Source of the DNA: Ruditapes philippinarum
Taxonomy: Eukaryota
Length of the DNA: 64,000 bases
Assembly: GCF_026571515.1 (NCBI RefSeq)
Contig: NW_026853344.1
Coordinates: 1-64,000 of the forward strand
Direction of reading: 5' to 3'
Shown here: positions 3,001 through 42,000 of the stretch, piece after piece
Layout of the letters: each line of letters opens with the position of its first letter
Position numbering within the stretch: the stretch's first letter is position 1
Position numbers: made by a program

Positions 3001-6000
3001 TGCCCCTAACGTGATACGCGTCTGTAAACACTATATCAAAACTATTTTAATATTTATTTAAATACGAATTGGACATTTGTTACAACGATAAAACCATTAA
3101 GTACTTTATTGAGACTTGGTGGTATATGGTATTTTTTCATACCGGTATATGTAAAAATTGCTTGAAAACCAGTTTTAACGATGTCCAATTCGTGTTTAAA
3201 TATTAATATTATTTTAAATAGAGTGTTTACAGGGGCACGTATCATGTTGGGGTATGGGATCTGACCCCCAAGCGTCTGTGTTCTAAAGGACATGTCAGCC
3301 ATCAGTTGTAGACATATATCTGCGTAGGCATCACTGCAACTAAATTCATTGACCAACAGTATTCTTGGGAAAACACTGAATTTACAAGAATACTGTTGGT
3401 CAAAGTTAACAGATCTGAATCAACTGGTTGTCTGTAGTCAGATTTTCCATATACTTCCGGCACAGTGTAAACCATTTCTATTGCAAAAAAGTAAATTAGC
3501 AATTGGCAAAAAAGCAAATACGTAAACCAGCGGTTAACAAATAAGCAAATTAGCAATTCAGCAATTGGCAAATAAGCAAATTTGTCGTTAAGACTATCAG
3601 CCATTAGCAAATAAGCAAATCGGCAATTATCAAATAAGCAATTCAGCAATTGGCAAATAAGCAAATTGGCATGTCCCTACCGACATTCCATATAAAATAT
3701 ACATTTCAAAGTAACAATCGAATATATTTTCGTCCGTAACAAAAAACGGAAAGTGTTCCTGGTATCACGGTGATAGGGCGTTTAACGCAACGTCACTATA
3801 TTGTACTTCTGACTGAGACACCGTATGTTTCTGTCATACAAAATGAATGTCAAGCCTGCATACGACAAAAAAAAAAATGATAATTTGCCCAAAACAAGGT
3901 ATTTATAGTAGATGAATTATGTTGAAGTGTATGCTTTCCTACTGTATTCGATAGAACGTTTCGGCTGTCAATGTTGTATTTAATTTAAATCTTTACCTAT
4001 TTACGACACTTTTTTTTCCAAAGATTCTTTGTATTTAATTTTAAAATAAATGAACATAACTCGTTCGTTGAGTGTTTTTCATCTTGTTTCTTCCTTTTTT
4101 ATTCAATTTTGATACCTTTTTTAAACTCCGAAATCTTAGTCGCCACGTCCTTAAATTACTGGGGTCATTTGTAATTTAAAATTAATTTATTTTTATTTGT
4201 TGTATTTCAATGTTTGCTCATTTCAAAATTAGAATATTTCTCCTCGATAAATATCTTTGAATGATTACCCAGTGAAATATCCTTTAACTGAAGGTAATTC
4301 TTTATCAAGTTTTATCAGCAATTCCTTTGCTTTTTCAACTGCATCAGTGCTAGAATTTGCTAAAACTACATTATCTAAGCCAGCAGTCCATGTGGTGTGA
4401 TAGTTAGATATTTTACGCTGTTTGTTATCAATATATACGTGGGGGATATTGAGAAGTGTTGATAGAATATGACCGTGAAGACGATCAGTGATTACTACTC
4501 GACCTCTCTGTAAAAACATCATTCCATTGGTTGTCTTAAGAAACGAGTCTTCCATTGGCGAGTCCCCACGATGGGTTTTCCATATTAACCAATCAGAAAC
4601 GTGCATACGATAACCTTCCGGAGCTGCCGGTGTATTGTAGTGTGGAGACTCTTTATCGGTGCGCTTTAACCAAAGTATATCGAACGTTGGATGCATGAAG
4701 CGAGGAACGAAACCAATCTGGTAGGCAATATCTGGTGATAATAGGGAACGTACGTTAGGGAAGAGCTTCTTGCCAAGCTCGAAAGATACCTTATCTCGCC
4801 ATAGAAACGTAAGCTTCGGATGAGATGCATATATTTTCTGGCAGAACTTAATGTGAGAATCTGGTCCCATTGTCAAAATACTTTGTGGAAACATGACAAT
4901 GTTGAACGGCATGAATCGTTTTATTTGTTTACTACGAGAAAAATCTGACGAAGGCCAACCAATGACATTTCCGCCACCATGAAAAAGAATGACAAGATCT
5001 TTACTTGTATAATTTTTACTGATGTTATGAGCTCTGTATATTTGATTGTCTGTGCAAAATACTTTACATGCAAACACAATTTCGATTTTGAGTTTCCTCA
5101 AAAGCAATGTTTCTCCAACAGTAATCGCCGAGTCACCTTTGTTTTCCGAGGTAGAATAATCGAATAGCATTGCATATTTATACCCGCCCAACAGGGACTT
5201 GAAAATATTCATGTGAATTCTCTGAGCTTCGTCAATTACATCTGACCGTTTTGTATGTAATGGAGAAAGTTTATTAGTTTCTTCTGGATTGTGTACTAGA
5301 TCTAATGATAGGAAGTCTATGATGTTGAATGTCGCTTGCTTTGACAGAGATAAATTATTCCACAACAATTTATAGCTATCATTGTTTACATCAGTATATT
5401 TCATTTTATGTTTTGGTAGCCCTAACATCATCTTCGGTATCTCGAAGACTTGATATACTGCCAGAATAGCCAAAGTGAAAGTAACCGAAGTAAAGAAATG
5501 TCTCCTGTACCCCATCACAGCTGAAATATAAAAACAAAGTTCAGTTTGATTCTAGATGATACTTTTTATATACAGGTACTTTCGTTTTTCTGAGACTTTT
5601 TCGAATAAATTGATACAACAATTGAACAACAACAACAACCATAATTGATGTAAGAATATTTTACTTAGACTATATAAAATGAACTAGTCATTTTCTACAT
5701 TTGATAATGAAAATATTATATATAATGTGTAACATCTCAAATAATGAAGTATATGTCATGGTTCACAACAAAATAGTTTACGCCTTAATATATTAATATA
5801 TATATTTATATATATAAAGGACTAAAGAAAGAAGGAATAACAAACCCATTAAGAACTATCATTAGTATCATAATGGTGTTACAGATTCTTCAACTCACTT
5901 TTCAATATCTTACTTGACCCTTCGTTGATTTGGTTACTATTTAACTCTCGTAGTATAGAAAACGCATAAATTGCAAGACCTTTTACACAAATGAAAAGTT

Positions 6001-39000: not shown

Positions 39001-42000
39001 GGCTTAGATAATGTAGTTTTAGCAAATTCTAGTATTGACGCAGTTGAAAAAGCAAAGGAATTGCTGATAAAACTGGATAAAGAATTACCTTCAGTTAAAG
39101 GATATTTCATAAATAAAGTAAGAAAAGACAATGCATAAGAGGACAACAAGCTAACGATATGAAATTAACACTATAATTAAAATGTTTTATACTAAAATGT
39201 CAGTAACAAAAGGAACTACTGCAGTTTAAGAAGCTTTATGCACAAATATAATAAGCACAGATGAGAATTGTATATTTTCAAAATGTTTTCATTTTTGTAT
39301 TAACAAACATGTACCAGATATGTCTATAAAATGTTTCTAAAATAAATGATTCAAACAAAAAAAAACCCATAAGCATTCGAAAGGTCTGATATATCCCCTT
39401 TCACAGTAAATGTTATAACCTTTGACCGACCTAAGTATTACCTTGACCTTAAAAGAAACAAGCTGGTTTTTGAGTTCTGCACATCATCTCATACTGGCTT
39501 TCATTTGTTCCATGTGATTTTAAAACTTCTTTAGCAAGCTAAAGGTAATTCATATAGGATATAAAAAGTGGATTTTTATATTTTACCTTAAGACATTGCT
39601 TTGAACTTGGGATAGCGACCTGTTACATCGTTCAATAATGATGATCAAATGTGCCTAGGAAATTTTAAAACTTTTCTTTGAAGTGGAGAAGTAATGTTTT
39701 TTGTTTTTTTTGTTTTTTTTATAAATTTGATAATTAATATTGTACTTGGTCTTGGGGGTGCAAACTTGTTGCTTGCGCTCTTCACGTCGTCTCGTAATGG
39801 TGAGCATTGAACTGTTATAATGTTGTGGAGCGGACACGAAATATTACAGACGGACAGACTGATAGACCAGACGGAAGCAATTCCTATAGTCACTCCTCCA
39901 CTACGCGGCAGGGGATTATTAAACATTTGAAAATGCGAATGATTCTGACTACATAGCAAACAGTAGATTATAATTAGCTTAGAATACAACACTATCTATC
40001 GGTGTATTGTTGTTCATTGGCAAAATAAGTTTATGTTTCTACCTTTTGTTCAAATAGATGATTCTTTGTCGTGATTATAGATATTTACTCAATAAGCAAA
40101 CCCATTTAACGAGAAATATGTGTACGCTTCCCAAAACCATTTGAAATCATTTCTTTGTGGACAAATGATAACATGATTAGCTGGGCAATGTGCTAATTGA
40201 AAAGACTAGAGTGACCTTTTTACAGTTTAGAGTATAATTATCTGGATACAATAAAACGAGTAGCATCCATCATGTTGAACTTATAGATCTTTTTACAATA
40301 CGATTTTCCATAGCAACGAATGTTGCATTTCGCGCATGCGCATTATGCGTAGGGCAAAACGCAATAACGATGTCTACAGTTAATCATACTTTAAGGCTTT
40401 AATAGATGCGACTTCATGTTATGTCACCCAAAAAATACTAATTTTGGGATGACTTAAGGCGTAAAGTAAATATCATGATATAGTTAATCAGTTACGCTTA
40501 TTAAAATGGTAATTTATGTAACTTTTAAATATACCGATCAATGTTTATGGATTTTGAGAAGAGAAAAATTGTGTGAAGTGCATTATTAAAAATAACATGT
40601 ATTACGAAAAAAGGGGATAAAATGTGTGTTCATTATATATCTTCCAAACAACCCATCTTAATTTCTAAAGATTTTGAAAAAAAATTAATTATTTAAAATC
40701 TATTTATGTAACTTAAATTTTTCTGTTTGCATCACAGGCAAATCGGATAAAGGATATAATCAGCTAGGTATATTGAACACTAAAAATGCATTATCACATG
40801 TTCTGATATTTTTTCTGAATGATAATTAATCTCGATTTCATGTTATATAATTTCTTTTGTTTTTAAATGAACTATTTCAACAGCAAATAAGTTGACTTTG
40901 CATTTGCTAATAGATATATTTCCACATCTTCTTTAAAAAAATGATCTCAGTGTCAGGTCCGTGATCGTAAATTCTTAAACAAGTATCTTTCCCATGCCTT
41001 TTTATGGCATTCTTCGCCACAAAGCTACAAAGTCATCTATTCTATATTTGTTAAAAGCTATTTAATATAATTTTCTACCGTTTACCTTGAACTAACTCGG
41101 AATTGTCTATGAACTTCTACTATATTTCTATGTAGGGCGAAGCATTTTTGCCCTACGCAGATTGCGCATGCGCAAGACAATTCTAATTCCGGTCGATTTT
41201 TCATAGCAACGGACCGCGTCGTAAAAAGGTCTATAGTAGCGTAGTTAAGTCAAAAGCAGTGCTACGGGGCTTCTGGGTTGCTTGCATTTTCTATAAATTG
41301 TCATGAATAGATTCAATAAAACCTTGTCTGCGAGTTACAACCATATGTTAACGTTTTTATAATTGCAAATGCTAATCACAAATGACATCCCCTTTTCCAG
41401 ATTTTTGCCTGGTATCGTTGTATACGGAGAGTAACGAAACGCTTTTAAGAATAAAACATATAAGCGTATAAAGAAATTTATTCGAGTAGAAATAGTACAG
41501 GTTACAATAATTGTTAAACAAATATGAAATACATCTTTCTTTCTATCACAAAACATTGTAGTAATTGCATTAACGATCAAACCTTTTTTTCCCTTGGTAA
41601 ATACCTGTGAATCGGTATACACCACGTATTGTTTAAACTTTTCCAAGTTAACATGTTATGGACAGAACTTTGTAATATTCATTACTTTCGCCGAAAGAGA
41701 ATCATACAAAATGGAATGTTTATATACATGTAGATGCCAGGATTGTCAAGACGTTGTTTCTATAATAACGGATATATACATTGAAAGATAATGAAGTATT
41801 AAATGCAAGCGTATTAACGAGTGACATTCCTTTTTATTTTGGGCTAAGGGTGGAAATTTTTAAAAGTGAAGCTACACAAGGTGAAAGGTCAGCAAAAGAA
41901 ATAACGTACTCCTTTATCAATGAACATTGATAGAATCTAACATACATTTTCAATAAATATTATCTCACAAATAATTAACAATTTTTCAATTAAAATCCTA

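What the first reader, a model, noticed from the sequence alone, without database searches (positions are those of the whole stretch)
4265..39138. Asymmetric decay: transporter exon lost independently four times while all five transferase ORFs stay open
Seen: the copy 1 transporter has two nonsense codons, copy 2 has several stops and frameshifts, copy 3 has a retrotransposon insertion, and copy 5 has stops and indels. The lesions differ between copies, yet the longer 1.26-kb transferase exon is open in every copy. It retains an ATG 5 nt after the acceptor (G at -3) followed by basic residues and a TM helix, the signature of a standalone type II Golgi enzyme. Inference: this is gene fission in progress. 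One fused copy supplies PEP, while the others make transferase-only proteins by skipping the transporter exon or using an internal promoter.
Basis: partly seen in the sequence, partly recalled or inferred. Interest (0 to 1): 0.72.

Follow-up and report, generated by a model that had tools for sequence, protein, structure and literature searches.

The report
Clam transporter-transferase gene array shedding transporters
Five neighbouring copies of a clam gene that joins a sugar-modifying enzyme to its likely substrate transporter have lost the transporter part in four different ways while keeping the enzyme part readable, a tidy but not unprecedented example of a fused gene coming apart after duplication.

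Summary
The window is a Manila clam (Ruditapes philippinarum) scaffold. It carries five copies of a two-exon gene: a TPT-family transporter exon (PF03151) spliced in phase 1 to a Pvg1-like pyruvyltransferase exon (PF04230).

- **Intact copy:** only copy 4 is intact. It matches NCBI's 720-aa fused model.
- **Broken transporter exons:** copies 1, 2, 3 and 5 carry 12 disabling or structural lesions in the transporter exon, and none is shared between copies. Copy 3 is broken only by a very young Ngaro-like retrotransposon.
- **Transferase exons:** all five are open, with only 3-nt indels and the catalytic D/R/R residues kept.

The asymmetry exceeds chance in aggregate. There are 11 lesions against 0 (P about 7e-5). 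Amino-acid changes avoid conserved transferase sites (3 of 64 against 12.7 expected) but not conserved transporter sites.

Copy by copy the case is uneven:
- **Copy 5:** clear purifying selection, plus an annotated isoform that skips the dead exon from a copy-specific upstream mini-exon.
- **Copy 1:** borderline.
- **Copy 2:** indistinguishable from neutral, and may be dying.
- **Copy 3:** too recent to tell.

Gene conversion is pervasive in both exons. This is duplication-degeneration domain loss, and it recurs across mollusc annotations. The PEP-supply role of the transporter is inferred, not shown.

The parts
4265..5520 (-). Copy 1 transferase exon (internal ATG at 5515-5513, stop at 4267-4265). 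The frame is open, with one 3-nt deletion.
5899..6814 (-). Copy 1 transporter exon, dead. It has TGA at 6790-6788, TAA at 6376-6374 and a 12-nt insertion at 5917-5906. The ATG and the GTGAGT donor are kept.
12661..13556 (+). Copy 2 transporter exon, dead. It has three frameshifts, three nonsense codons (12763, 12965, 13027) and two in-frame indels.
13885..15143 (+). Copy 2 transferase exon. The frame is open with one 3-nt insertion. It has G-to-S at the invariant Gly of DRLHG, and copy-specific omega is about 0.94.
18080..18555 (+). Copy 3 transporter exon, 5' part. The frame is open up to the insertion.
18556..25656 (-). Ngaro- or PAT-like tyrosine-recombinase retrotransposon inserted in the copy 3 transporter exon. 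It has gag-like, RT and YR reading frames, and split direct repeats that are 100% and 98% identical.
25657..26093 (+). Copy 3 transporter exon, 3' part. The frame is open. NCBI's 554-aa model starts here.
26447..27702 (+). Copy 3 transferase exon, open.
31108..32011 (+). Copy 4 transporter exon, intact (ATG at 31108; the donor GTGAGT begins at 32012). It matches PF03151, and the phosphate-binding K, Y and KR residues are kept.
32353..33611 (+). Copy 4 transferase exon (internal ATG at 32358). It matches PF04230 and resembles Pvg1p.
36391..36412 (+). Copy 5-specific upstream mini-exon (ATG plus a GTAAGG donor). In NCBI isoform X2 it is spliced directly to the transferase exon. Copies 2 and 4 read ATC at the start codon, and copy 4 has no GT at this site.
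36618..37526 (+). Copy 5 transporter exon, dead. It has TAG at 36654, TAA at 36878, a +2 insertion at 36762-36763 and a +3 insertion at 36957-36959.
37862..39138 (+). Copy 5 transferase exon. The frame is open and under purifying selection on its own branch (13 synonymous and 12 non-synonymous changes).

Best explanation
This is a tandem array (four direct copies and one inverted) of a mollusc gene. Exon 1 encodes a roughly 10-helix TPT/DMT phosphate-exchange transporter. It is fused through an eleventh helix to a lumenal Pvg1-like ketal-pyruvyltransferase encoded by exon 2.

The array is undergoing duplication-degeneration.
- Copy 4 still makes the fused protein.
- Copies 1, 2, 3 and 5 have each lost the transporter exon by a different route (nonsense mutations, slippage frameshifts, a retrotransposon).
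- The transferase exon keeps its own ATG, type II anchor and catalytic residues, so it can serve as a stand-alone Golgi enzyme.

The four copies are at different stages:
- Copy 5 is a completed transferase-only gene. A new 5' mini-exon skips the dead exon, and the transferase is under purifying selection.
- Copy 1 is probably still constrained.
- Copy 3 was hit very recently.
- Copy 2 may be on its way to full pseudogenisation.

Frequent gene conversion among copies shuffles both exons.

What is shown: the anatomy, the lesions, the splice phases, the aggregate asymmetry and the annotated isoforms. What is inferred: that transferase-only enzymes rely on PEP imported by fused copies, that the transporter carries PEP at all, and that the copies differ in acceptor specificity.
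For: **Domains**
- TPT scores 48.7 bits against a cut-off of 30, and PS_pyruv_trans scores 72 bits against 25.3.
- The transferase exon matches S. pombe Pvg1p (5AX7) at E = 7.9e-42.
[quoted passage not shown] They are kept in 5 of 5 copies.
- The transporter exon matches the Galdieria translocator 5Y78 at E = 1.2e-8. The phosphate-binding Lys204, Tyr339, Lys362 and Arg363 equivalents are present.

**Fusion splice**
- Phase-1 donor and acceptor are identical to NCBI XP_060579718.1.
- Fused forms occur in many gastropods and bivalves.

**Lesions**
- None of the transporter-exon lesions is shared between copies.

**Asymmetry**
- 11 lesions against 0 (P = 7e-5).
- No stop codon among 129 copy-specific transferase substitutions, where 5.1 were expected (P = 0.005).
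- All three indels in the transferase exons are 3 nt long, whereas 4 of 8 indels in the dead transporter exons shift the frame.
- Unique amino-acid changes hit conserved sites 3 times in 64 in the transferase exons of the four transporter-dead copies (12.7 expected, P = 5e-4). In the dead transporter exons they hit 7 times in 57 (7.2 expected, P = 0.57).

**Copy-specific substitutions**
- Transporter, copy 4: 5 synonymous and 1 non-synonymous. Copy 2: 2 and 14. Copy 5: 7 and 17.
- Transferase, copy 5: 13 and 12 (P = 0.0026).

**Conversion from copy 4 cannot explain the open transferase frames**
- The copy 2 and copy 5 transferase exons form a separate haplogroup, 15-21% diverged from copy 4 over 32725-33000.
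- Their dead transporter exons are closer to copy 4 (dS 0.09 and 0.13) than their transferase exons are (0.16 and 0.19).

**Expression models**
- Copy 5 has isoform X2 (exon skipping) and X1. Copy 3 has a 554-aa model. Copy 2 has a 388-aa model.

**Recurrence**
- In a tree of 43 rows the fused/unfused label needs at least 14 changes, 12 of them forced by well-supported branches.
Against: - Pairwise dN/dS does not separate the two exons: 0.26-0.56 for the transporter and 0.33-0.58 for the transferase.
- On their own branches the transferase exons of copy 2 (6 synonymous, 21 non-synonymous; P = 0.67) and copy 3 (6 and 17; P = 0.50) look neutral. Copy 1 is only borderline (18 and 36; P = 0.085).
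- Copy 2 has G-to-S at a Gly that is invariant in 21 of 21 fused homologues. Its NCBI model starts after the membrane anchor.
- No protein for copy 1 is in the collection.
- No database model starts at the internal ATG in any of the five copies (0 of 5).
- Gene conversion is pervasive. Synonymous divergence between copy 1 and copy 4 swings from 0.44 to 0.03 between neighbouring 50-codon windows. The copy 1 intron is unalignable. Ten of 20 pair-by-exon run tests give P < 0.05, and 2 survive Bonferroni correction. Conversion could therefore have erased transferase lesions.
- Transferase parts do decay elsewhere in this genome. One annotated model is broken after residue 318, and another has an intact transporter but is truncated at transferase residue 178.
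- At the position where Arabidopsis PPT1 has Asn to accommodate PEP, the clam has Leu.
- No transcript reads were available to me.
Confidence: 0.65

Rival explanations
1. Copies 1, 2, 3 and 5 are all whole-gene pseudogenes. Their transferase exons are open only by chance, by recency, and because gene conversion from open copies keeps overwriting them.
For: - The transferase branches of copies 2 and 3 look neutral.
- Copy 3's insertion is very young, with repeats 100% and 98% identical.
- There is a strong conversion mosaic in both exons.
- Considered one copy at a time, P(no stop) is only 0.11-0.39.
- Copy 1 has no protein in the collection.
Against: - The aggregate tests are significant: 11 lesions against 0, P = 7e-5; no stop among 129 substitutions, P = 0.005; conserved-site avoidance of 3 in 64 against 12.7 expected, P = 5e-4.
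- Copy 5 shows purifying selection (P = 0.0026) and has an annotated exon-skipping isoform.
- Conversion also reaches the transporter exons (copy 2's first 50 codons have pS = 0.00 against copy 4) and yet has not rescued them.
Confidence: 0.2
2. The array works as one splicing cluster. The single intact transporter exon (copy 4) is spliced to alternative downstream transferase exons such as copy 5's, so the dead exons are simply bypassed.
For: - All donors and acceptors are phase 1 and intact in 5 of 5 copies.
- Copy 5 lies downstream of copy 4 on the same strand.
Against: - No such model is among the NCBI proteins seen.
- Copies 2 and 3 lie upstream of copy 4 and copy 1 is inverted, so at most one copy could benefit.
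- The copy 4 transferase exon ends in a stop codon.
Confidence: 0.05
3. The transporter lesions are assembly or sequencing errors, and all five copies are really intact fused genes.
For: All four frameshifts lie in homopolymer or dinucleotide runs.
Against: - There are seven nonsense substitutions, at least two in each of copies 1, 2 and 5.
- Copy 3 carries a 7.1-kb insertion with its own repeats and reading frames.
- Substitutions in the dead exons follow a neutral pattern.
Confidence: 0.02

Closest known systems
Schizosaccharomyces pombe Pvg1p with the Golgi PEP transporters Pet1p and Pet2p
   Same: - Pvg1p is a type II Golgi-membrane pyruvyltransferase that uses PEP imported into the lumen (passages of PMC6801904).
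- The clam exon matches the Pvg1p structure at E = 7.9e-42 and keeps the D106, R217 and R337 equivalents.
- A TPT-family carrier accompanies the enzyme.
   Different: - In yeast the carrier and the enzyme are separate genes. In the clam they are two exons of one gene.
- The acceptor glycan in clams is unknown. The only mollusc pyruvylated glycan I saw cited is an Aplysia glycolipid.
- The residue at the Pvg1p H168 position, which governs acceptor choice, is Ser in copies 1, 3 and 4 and Ala in copies 2 and 5.
Annotated but uncharacterised mollusc TPT-pyruvyltransferase fusion proteins (Lottia, Haliotis, Patella, Elysia, Pomacea, Bulinus and others)
   Same: - They have the same two-domain order and an eleventh helix at the junction.
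- Copy 4 is one of them (XP_060579718.1).
   Different: - Those are single database entries.
- Here five neighbouring copies show the intermediate states of transporter loss.
- A junction Met is present in only 6 of 21 fused proteins.
Gene fission by duplication-degeneration (monkey-king family of Drosophila, Wang et al. 2004; seen only as a reference and table entry in PMC3395120)
   Same: A composite gene is duplicated and then the copies partly degenerate, so that a copy keeps only one module.
   Different: - Here only one direction (transporter loss) is seen in the window.
- The reciprocal product is suggested only by one annotated model on another scaffold.
- The duplication is tandem DNA duplication with ongoing gene conversion, not retroposition.
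Plastid phosphate translocators (TPT/PPT; Galdieria GsTPT2 structure 5Y78/5Y79)
   Same: - PF03151 family.
- The four phosphate-binding residues are conserved.
   Different: - Only a distant relative (E = 1.2e-8).
- It is not plastidic.
- It has Leu where PPT1 has Asn and TPT has Phe, so substrate preference cannot be read from the sequence.

Membership tests
PS_pyruv_trans / Pvg1p-like ketal pyruvyltransferase | Pfam PF04230 match above the gathering score | tested here: met
   72 bits against a cut-off of 25.3, scanned for the copy 4 exon only. The other four exons are 85-92% identical to it.
PS_pyruv_trans / Pvg1p-like ketal pyruvyltransferase | [quoted passage not shown] | tested here: met
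   The legend passage of PMC4872226 names them. The alignment to 5AX7 (chain index plus 53, my mapping) places them on NKGD, WRD and DRLH. They are invariant in 5 of 5 copies and in 21 of 21 fused homologues.
PS_pyruv_trans / Pvg1p-like ketal pyruvyltransferase | N-terminal type II membrane anchor | tested here: met
   one hydrophobic segment at residues 6-23, following M-x-x-K/R-R-H, in 5 of 5 copies. This rests on a crude hydropathy scan only.
PS_pyruv_trans / Pvg1p-like ketal pyruvyltransferase | PEP-dependent pyruvyl transfer to a glycan | not testable with these tools
   Needs an enzyme assay or complementation of S. pombe pvg1 deletion.
TPT (PF03151) phosphate-exchange transporter | Pfam match above the gathering score over the whole domain | tested here: met
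   48.7 bits against a cut-off of 30, covering profile positions 4-290 of 291 (copy 4).
TPT (PF03151) phosphate-exchange transporter | Phosphate-binding Lys204, Tyr339, Lys362 and Arg363 of GsTPT2 | tested here: met
   Passages of bioRxiv 10.1101/169169 name them. The alignment to 5Y78 (chain index plus 89, my mapping) puts K of AVKLMEP, Y of AIYSY and KR of GNILKR on them.
TPT (PF03151) phosphate-exchange transporter | PEP preference (Asn at the Phe262/263 position, as in Arabidopsis PPT1) | tested here: inconclusive
   The clam has Leu at that position, which is neither the TPT state nor the PPT state.
TPT (PF03151) phosphate-exchange transporter | Ten transmembrane helices | tested here: inconclusive
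   11 partly overlapping hydrophobic windows, about 9-10 segments, by a crude scan.
Gene fission by duplication-degeneration | Duplicates of a composite ancestor, each losing one module | tested here: met
   Transporter loss occurred in 4 of 5 copies, each with its own lesions. The composite form is widespread in molluscs.
Gene fission by duplication-degeneration | Reciprocal product (a transporter kept while the transferase is lost) | tested here: not met
   None of the five copies in the window shows this. One annotated 544-aa model on another scaffold has an intact transporter and a transferase truncated at residue 178. Its DNA could not be reached.
Gene fission by duplication-degeneration | The surviving module is under purifying selection after the loss | tested here: inconclusive
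   Yes for copy 5 (P = 0.0026). Borderline for copy 1 (P = 0.085, and 1 of 24 changes at conserved sites, P = 0.034). No for copies 2 and 3. Pooled P = 0.013.
Gene fission by duplication-degeneration | Independent expression of the surviving module | not testable with these tools
   Only NCBI models are available (isoform X2 for copy 5). I had no reads.
Ngaro/PAT-type tyrosine-recombinase retrotransposon (the insertion in copy 3) | [quoted passage not shown] | tested here: met
   RVT_1 scores 42.8 bits and Phage_integrase 37.1 bits. The repeats are 18547-18733 = 19005-19191 and 18810-19020 ~ 25462-25672. The definition comes from passages of PMC4157794. No methyltransferase domain was found in the 5 ORFs scanned, which points to Ngaro rather than PAT, though only weakly.

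The most novel reading that the evidence does not exclude
The array is a selected division of labour, not decay. One transporter-bearing gene feeds PEP to a set of transferase-only paralogues that have diverged in acceptor specificity. Their differences cluster in the stem and in two loops, one of which holds the Pvg1p H168-equivalent position.

The same route appears to have been taken repeatedly across Mollusca: death of the transporter exon, followed by capture of a new 5' exon or an internal start. The fused/unfused label changes at least 12 times in the tree. On this reading the fused gene is a recurrent source of new Golgi pyruvyltransferases in animals.
Probability: 0.3. Interest if true: 0.6.

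Novelty: new member of a known kind. Interest (0 to 1): 0.4.

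Why it matters
Glycan pyruvylation is barely studied in animals. The reviews I read cite a sea-hare glycolipid and sponge proteoglycans.

A transporter fused to a Pvg1-like enzyme predicts a PEP-dependent Golgi pyruvylation pathway in molluscs, and it names the carrier. This locus also shows, side by side, the successive stages by which a composite gene sheds one module after tandem duplication: a fresh transposon hit, point-mutation decay, and a finished single-module gene with a new first exon. 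That makes the duplication-degeneration route testable with ordinary transcript and population data.

It is an instructive example, not a new principle.

Tried and rejected
- **Pairwise dN/dS** did not separate the dead from the live exons, so I turned to copy-specific substitutions and conserved-site tests.
- **** failed on my own off-by-two exon boundary. One search is the corrected run.
- **Exact look-ups** of transferase proteins starting at the internal ATG found none of the five (0 of 5).
- **Stand-alone transporters of this subfamily.** One search returned only 5 proteins of 165-527 aa. One is labelled RhtA by JGI and the other four are unnamed; all five lie on contigs and none is a named mollusc gene model. 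At least one shares its contig length (3191) with a transferase ORF, so these look like single exons rather than separate genes.
- **Search of longer proteins** gave 4 hits.
- **Literature on a mollusc transporter-pyruvyltransferase fusion** gave nothing relevant (12, 7 and 0 papers listed).
- **Reading PEP specificity from the translocator pocket** was inconclusive, because the clam has Leu at the key position.
- **Rfam and tRNA scans** of the whole window found nothing (0 hits each).
- **Pfam on 15 further ORFs** gave only one match above its cut-off, RhoGEF.
- **** was rejected because a search term was too short. It was repeated.
- **Assembly error as an explanation** was rejected because of the seven nonsense substitutions.
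- **Not run:** structure prediction, fold search, complex prediction, the representative-protein search, the atlas search and the genome-contig scan. None would bear on the question.
  - the DNA of the other clam scaffolds (65,286, 98,007 and 108,269 bp);
  - any RNA reads;
  - the closed metagenome and viral collections;
  - paper supplements.

Full report
**Source and layout.** The window is AT-rich animal DNA (GC 0.28-0.39) with no N. It is not human. Three annotated proteins from a 77,733-bp scaffold of Ruditapes philippinarum (Manila clam) match window exons: XP_060579713.1 and XP_060579712.1 at 100%, and XP_060579718.1 at 99.7% in the part compared.

A stop-to-stop ORF list shows five long frames of 427-433 aa. 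One lies on the minus strand (4265-5551) and four on the plus strand (13860-15143, 26407-27702, 32328-33611, 37837-39138). There is one 321-aa frame at 31054-32019. Pfam calls the 321-aa frame a triose-phosphate-transporter-family domain (PF03151, 48.7 bits, cut-off 30). It calls the copy 4 long frame a polysaccharide pyruvyl transferase (PF04230, 72 bits, cut-off 25.3). The repeat unit is about 5.5 kb. Copies 2-5 are direct repeats and copy 1 is inverted.

**Gene model.** In copy 4 the transporter frame starts at ATG 31108 and runs into a donor A|GTGAGT at 32011|32012. The intron ends in TTTATGTTTCAG at 32352. Both sites are phase 1. The predicted junction (...KEFQ-T-VMSYKRH...) is exactly that of NCBI's 720-aa model. 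I searched the two exons separately and left out any search with the joined model.

Five nucleotides after the acceptor lies an ATG with G at -3. It is followed by K/R-R-H and one hydrophobic stretch, and this holds in all five copies.

**Lesions.** A codon-level alignment to copy 4 gives the following for the transporter exon:
- **Copy 1:** TGA at codon 9, TAA at codon 147, and a 12-nt insertion.
- **Copy 2:** frameshifts of +1, -1 and -2, three nonsense codons, and two in-frame indels.
- **Copy 3:** nothing except a 7.1-kb insertion.
- **Copy 5:** a +2 frameshift, two nonsense codons, and a +3 insertion.

No lesion is shared between copies. The transporter ATG, the donor and the acceptor survive in 5 of 5 copies. 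The transferase exons carry three indels, all of 3 nt, and no stop codon. The four frameshifts sit in homopolymer or dinucleotide runs and could be read errors. The seven nonsense substitutions cannot.

**The insertion in copy 3.** It encodes, on the minus strand, a gag-like frame, a reverse transcriptase (RVT_1, 42.8 bits) and a tyrosine recombinase (Phage_integrase, 37.1 bits). It has split direct repeats: 18547-18733 equals 19005-19191 at 100%, and 18810-19020 matches 25462-25672 at 98%. The internal pair lies downstream of the recombinase, which is the Ngaro/PAT arrangement (passages of PMC4157794). The same 9-nt core (TTTATGTTT / TATATGTTT) sits at both junctions and at the element's internal repeat junction. 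My inference is that this fits recombinase-mediated integration. Repeat identity and intact frames say the insertion is very young, so copy 3's open transferase frame carries no weight.

**Is the asymmetry more than chance?**

*Aggregate tests say yes.*
- There are 11 disabling lesions in the dead transporter exons of copies 1, 2 and 5 and 0 in their transferase exons. P = 7e-5, or 9e-4 after dropping the first lesion of each copy.
- With kappa of about 2, estimated from the dead exons, a random substitution in the transferase frame makes a stop codon 4.0% of the time. The 129 copy-specific substitutions in the four transferase exons should therefore have produced 5.1 stop codons (P(0) = 0.005).
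- I took sites that are at least 90% conserved in 19 other fused mollusc proteins. Unique amino-acid changes in the transferase exons of the four copies hit such sites 3 times in 64, against 12.7 expected (P = 5e-4). In the dead transporter exons they hit them 7 times in 57, against 7.2 expected (P = 0.57).

*Copy by copy the picture is uneven.* The table gives copy-specific synonymous and non-synonymous counts.

| Exon | Copy | Synonymous | Non-synonymous | P | Note |
|---|---|---|---|---|---|
| Transporter | 4 | 5 | 1 | 0.005 | constrained |
| Transporter | 2 | 2 | 14 | 0.94 | |
| Transporter | 5 | 7 | 17 | 0.41 | |
| Transporter | 1 | 21 | 48 | 0.21 | |
| Transferase | 5 | 13 | 12 | 0.0026 | |
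| Transferase | 4 | 9 | 12 | 0.048 | |
| Transferase | 1 | 18 | 36 | 0.085 | |
| Transferase | 2 | 6 | 21 | 0.67 | |
| Transferase | 3 | 6 | 17 | 0.50 | |

Pairwise dN/dS is useless here, at 0.26-0.56 for the transporter against 0.33-0.58 for the transferase.

Copy 2 also has Gly-to-Ser at a Gly that is invariant in 21 of 21 fused homologues. Its NCBI model of 388 aa begins after the membrane anchor. Copy 2 may be an early whole-gene pseudogene.

**Gene conversion.**
- Divergence along the unit is a mosaic.
- The intron and flanks of copy 1 cannot be aligned with the others, except for about 35 nt at the acceptor. Yet neighbouring 50-codon windows of its exons swing from pS 0.44 to 0.03 against copy 4.
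- Copy 2 resembles copy 4 from upstream to about 32700 and resembles copy 5 after that.
- In a run-length permutation test, 10 of 20 pair-by-exon comparisons reach P < 0.05 and 2 survive Bonferroni correction.

Conversion therefore matters, but it acts on both exons. Copy 2's first 50 transporter codons have pS = 0.00 against copy 4 and still carry a stop codon. The transferase exons of copies 2 and 5 form a separate haplogroup, 15-21% from copy 4 over 32725-33000. Conversion from copy 4 cannot be the whole explanation.

**Expression evidence is second-hand.** It consists of NCBI models only.
- **Copy 5, isoform X2 (432 aa):** starts MQPIICS in a mini-exon at 36391-36412, whose GTAAGG donor is phase 1. 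It joins the transferase acceptor and skips the dead exon.
- **This mini-exon is specific to copy 5.** Copies 2 and 4 read ATC instead of ATG, and copy 4 has no GT at this site. Copies 1 and 3 lack the segment altogether.
- **Copy 5, isoform X1 (611 aa) and the copy 3 model (554 aa):** both start inside the remaining transporter frame.
- **An intact fused paralogue on another scaffold:** it has a 741-aa isoform and a 454-aa isoform. The shorter one starts near the transporter's end. Dual output may therefore predate the decay.
- **Gaps:** no model starts at the internal ATG (0 of 5 exact look-ups), and no protein for copy 1 was found.

**What the proteins are.**
- **Transferase.** The exon matches S. 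pombe Pvg1p (5AX7) at E = 7.9e-42. The proposed catalytic D106, R217 and R337 (legend of PMC4872226) map to NKGD, WRD and DRLH and are kept in all five copies. Pvg1p sits in the Golgi membrane and uses PEP brought in by Pet1p and Pet2p (passage of PMC6801904).
- **Transporter.** The exon is a distant relative of the Galdieria translocator (5Y78, E = 1.2e-8). It keeps the four phosphate-binding residues named in bioRxiv 10.1101/169169. It has Leu where PPT1 has Asn, so PEP transport is an inference from the fusion and from the yeast analogy.
- **Where the copies differ.** Differences cluster in the stem and in two loops. One loop holds the Pvg1p H168-equivalent position: Ser in copies 1, 3 and 4, Ala in copies 2 and 5.

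**Wider context.** Of 344 relatives with E <= 1e-5, 120 are listed. Both fused forms (about 650-730 aa) and transferase-only forms occur in many gastropods and bivalves.

I built a tree of 43 rows from 38 source-named proteins and the five window copies. I left out all unnamed contig ORFs, because ORF callers split exons, and I left out alternative isoforms and broken models. On this tree the fused/unfused label needs at least 14 changes, 12 of them forced by well-supported branches. That is as many as shuffled labels need (mean 14.6). Either transporter loss recurs often or many gene models are incomplete.

Stand-alone transporters of this subfamily are almost absent. One search returned 5 hits, none a named mollusc gene model.

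Against a universal rule, two annotated models on other scaffolds have broken transferase parts. One runs to residue 318 and lies next to an intact fused gene. The other has an intact transporter and a transferase truncated at residue 178. I could not read their DNA.

**Novelty.** Full-text searches found no paper on the mollusc fusion. Duplication-degeneration as a route to gene fission is established (Wang et al. 2004, seen only as a citation in PMC3395120).

**Verdict.** This is a real, well-documented case of module loss in a tandem array. It is a new member of a known kind and of moderate interest.

Noticed in passing
window 18556-25656 (-): A young Ngaro- or PAT-like tyrosine-recombinase retrotransposon with four long open frames and split direct repeats that are 100% and 98% identical. 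A 9-nt core (TTTATGTTT / TATATGTTT) occurs at both insertion junctions and at the element's own internal repeat junction. It looks like a recombinase crossover site rather than a target-site duplication.
   Followed up: partly
window 19911-20423: Inside the retrotransposon, downstream of the recombinase frame, lie five or so tandem units of 58-63 nt. Each ends in GTCACACCCCAATGACACA, which contains the inverted pair TGTCA..TGACA.
   Followed up: no
window 24661-25239 (-): A 192-aa frame at the 5' side of the element has a weak GDSL/SGNH-hydrolase match (E = 0.0047, 17.9 bits), below the cut-off of 32.9.
   Followed up: no
window 36391-36412 (+): A mini-exon specific to copy 5, created by ATC>ATG and a one-base insertion that makes a GTAAGG donor. 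Copies 2 and 4 lack the ATG, and copy 4 has no GT at this site.
   Followed up: yes
window 5521-5898 and the flanks of copy 1: The intron and flanks of copy 1 share no detectable similarity with the other copies, although its exons are 2-20% diverged. This suggests an old inverted duplicate whose exons alone keep being converted.
   Followed up: partly
window 53105-53485 (-): An exon-sized frame with a RhoGEF domain match (42.2 bits, cut-off 27.6), probably a neighbouring unrelated gene. No further transporter or transferase fragments lie beyond 39138.
   Followed up: no
window 11156-11491 (+): A 111-aa frame between copies 1 and 2 with a sub-threshold CHORD match (22.1 bits, cut-off 24.6).
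   Followed up: no
protein P0027, not in the window: A 450-aa protein labelled as coming from a 'Candidatus Thiodiazotropha' metagenome-assembled genome sits on a 2,268-bp contig. In the tree it falls as sister to the clam proteins. It probably comes from the bivalve host's DNA binned with its symbiont.
   Followed up: partly
proteins P0134 and P0122, other clam scaffolds: Two annotated models show the opposite decay. One has an intact transporter with the transferase cut at residue 178. The other is a copy 4-like transferase that goes out of register after residue 318, lying beside an intact 719-aa fused gene whose transferase is a mosaic of copies 3 and 4.
   Followed up: partly
window transferase exons, residues about 150-165 and 189-204 of each: Two hypervariable patches split the copies into the groups (1, 3, 4) and (2, 5). 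The second patch includes the position equivalent to Pvg1p H168, which controls acceptor choice in yeast.
   Followed up: partly
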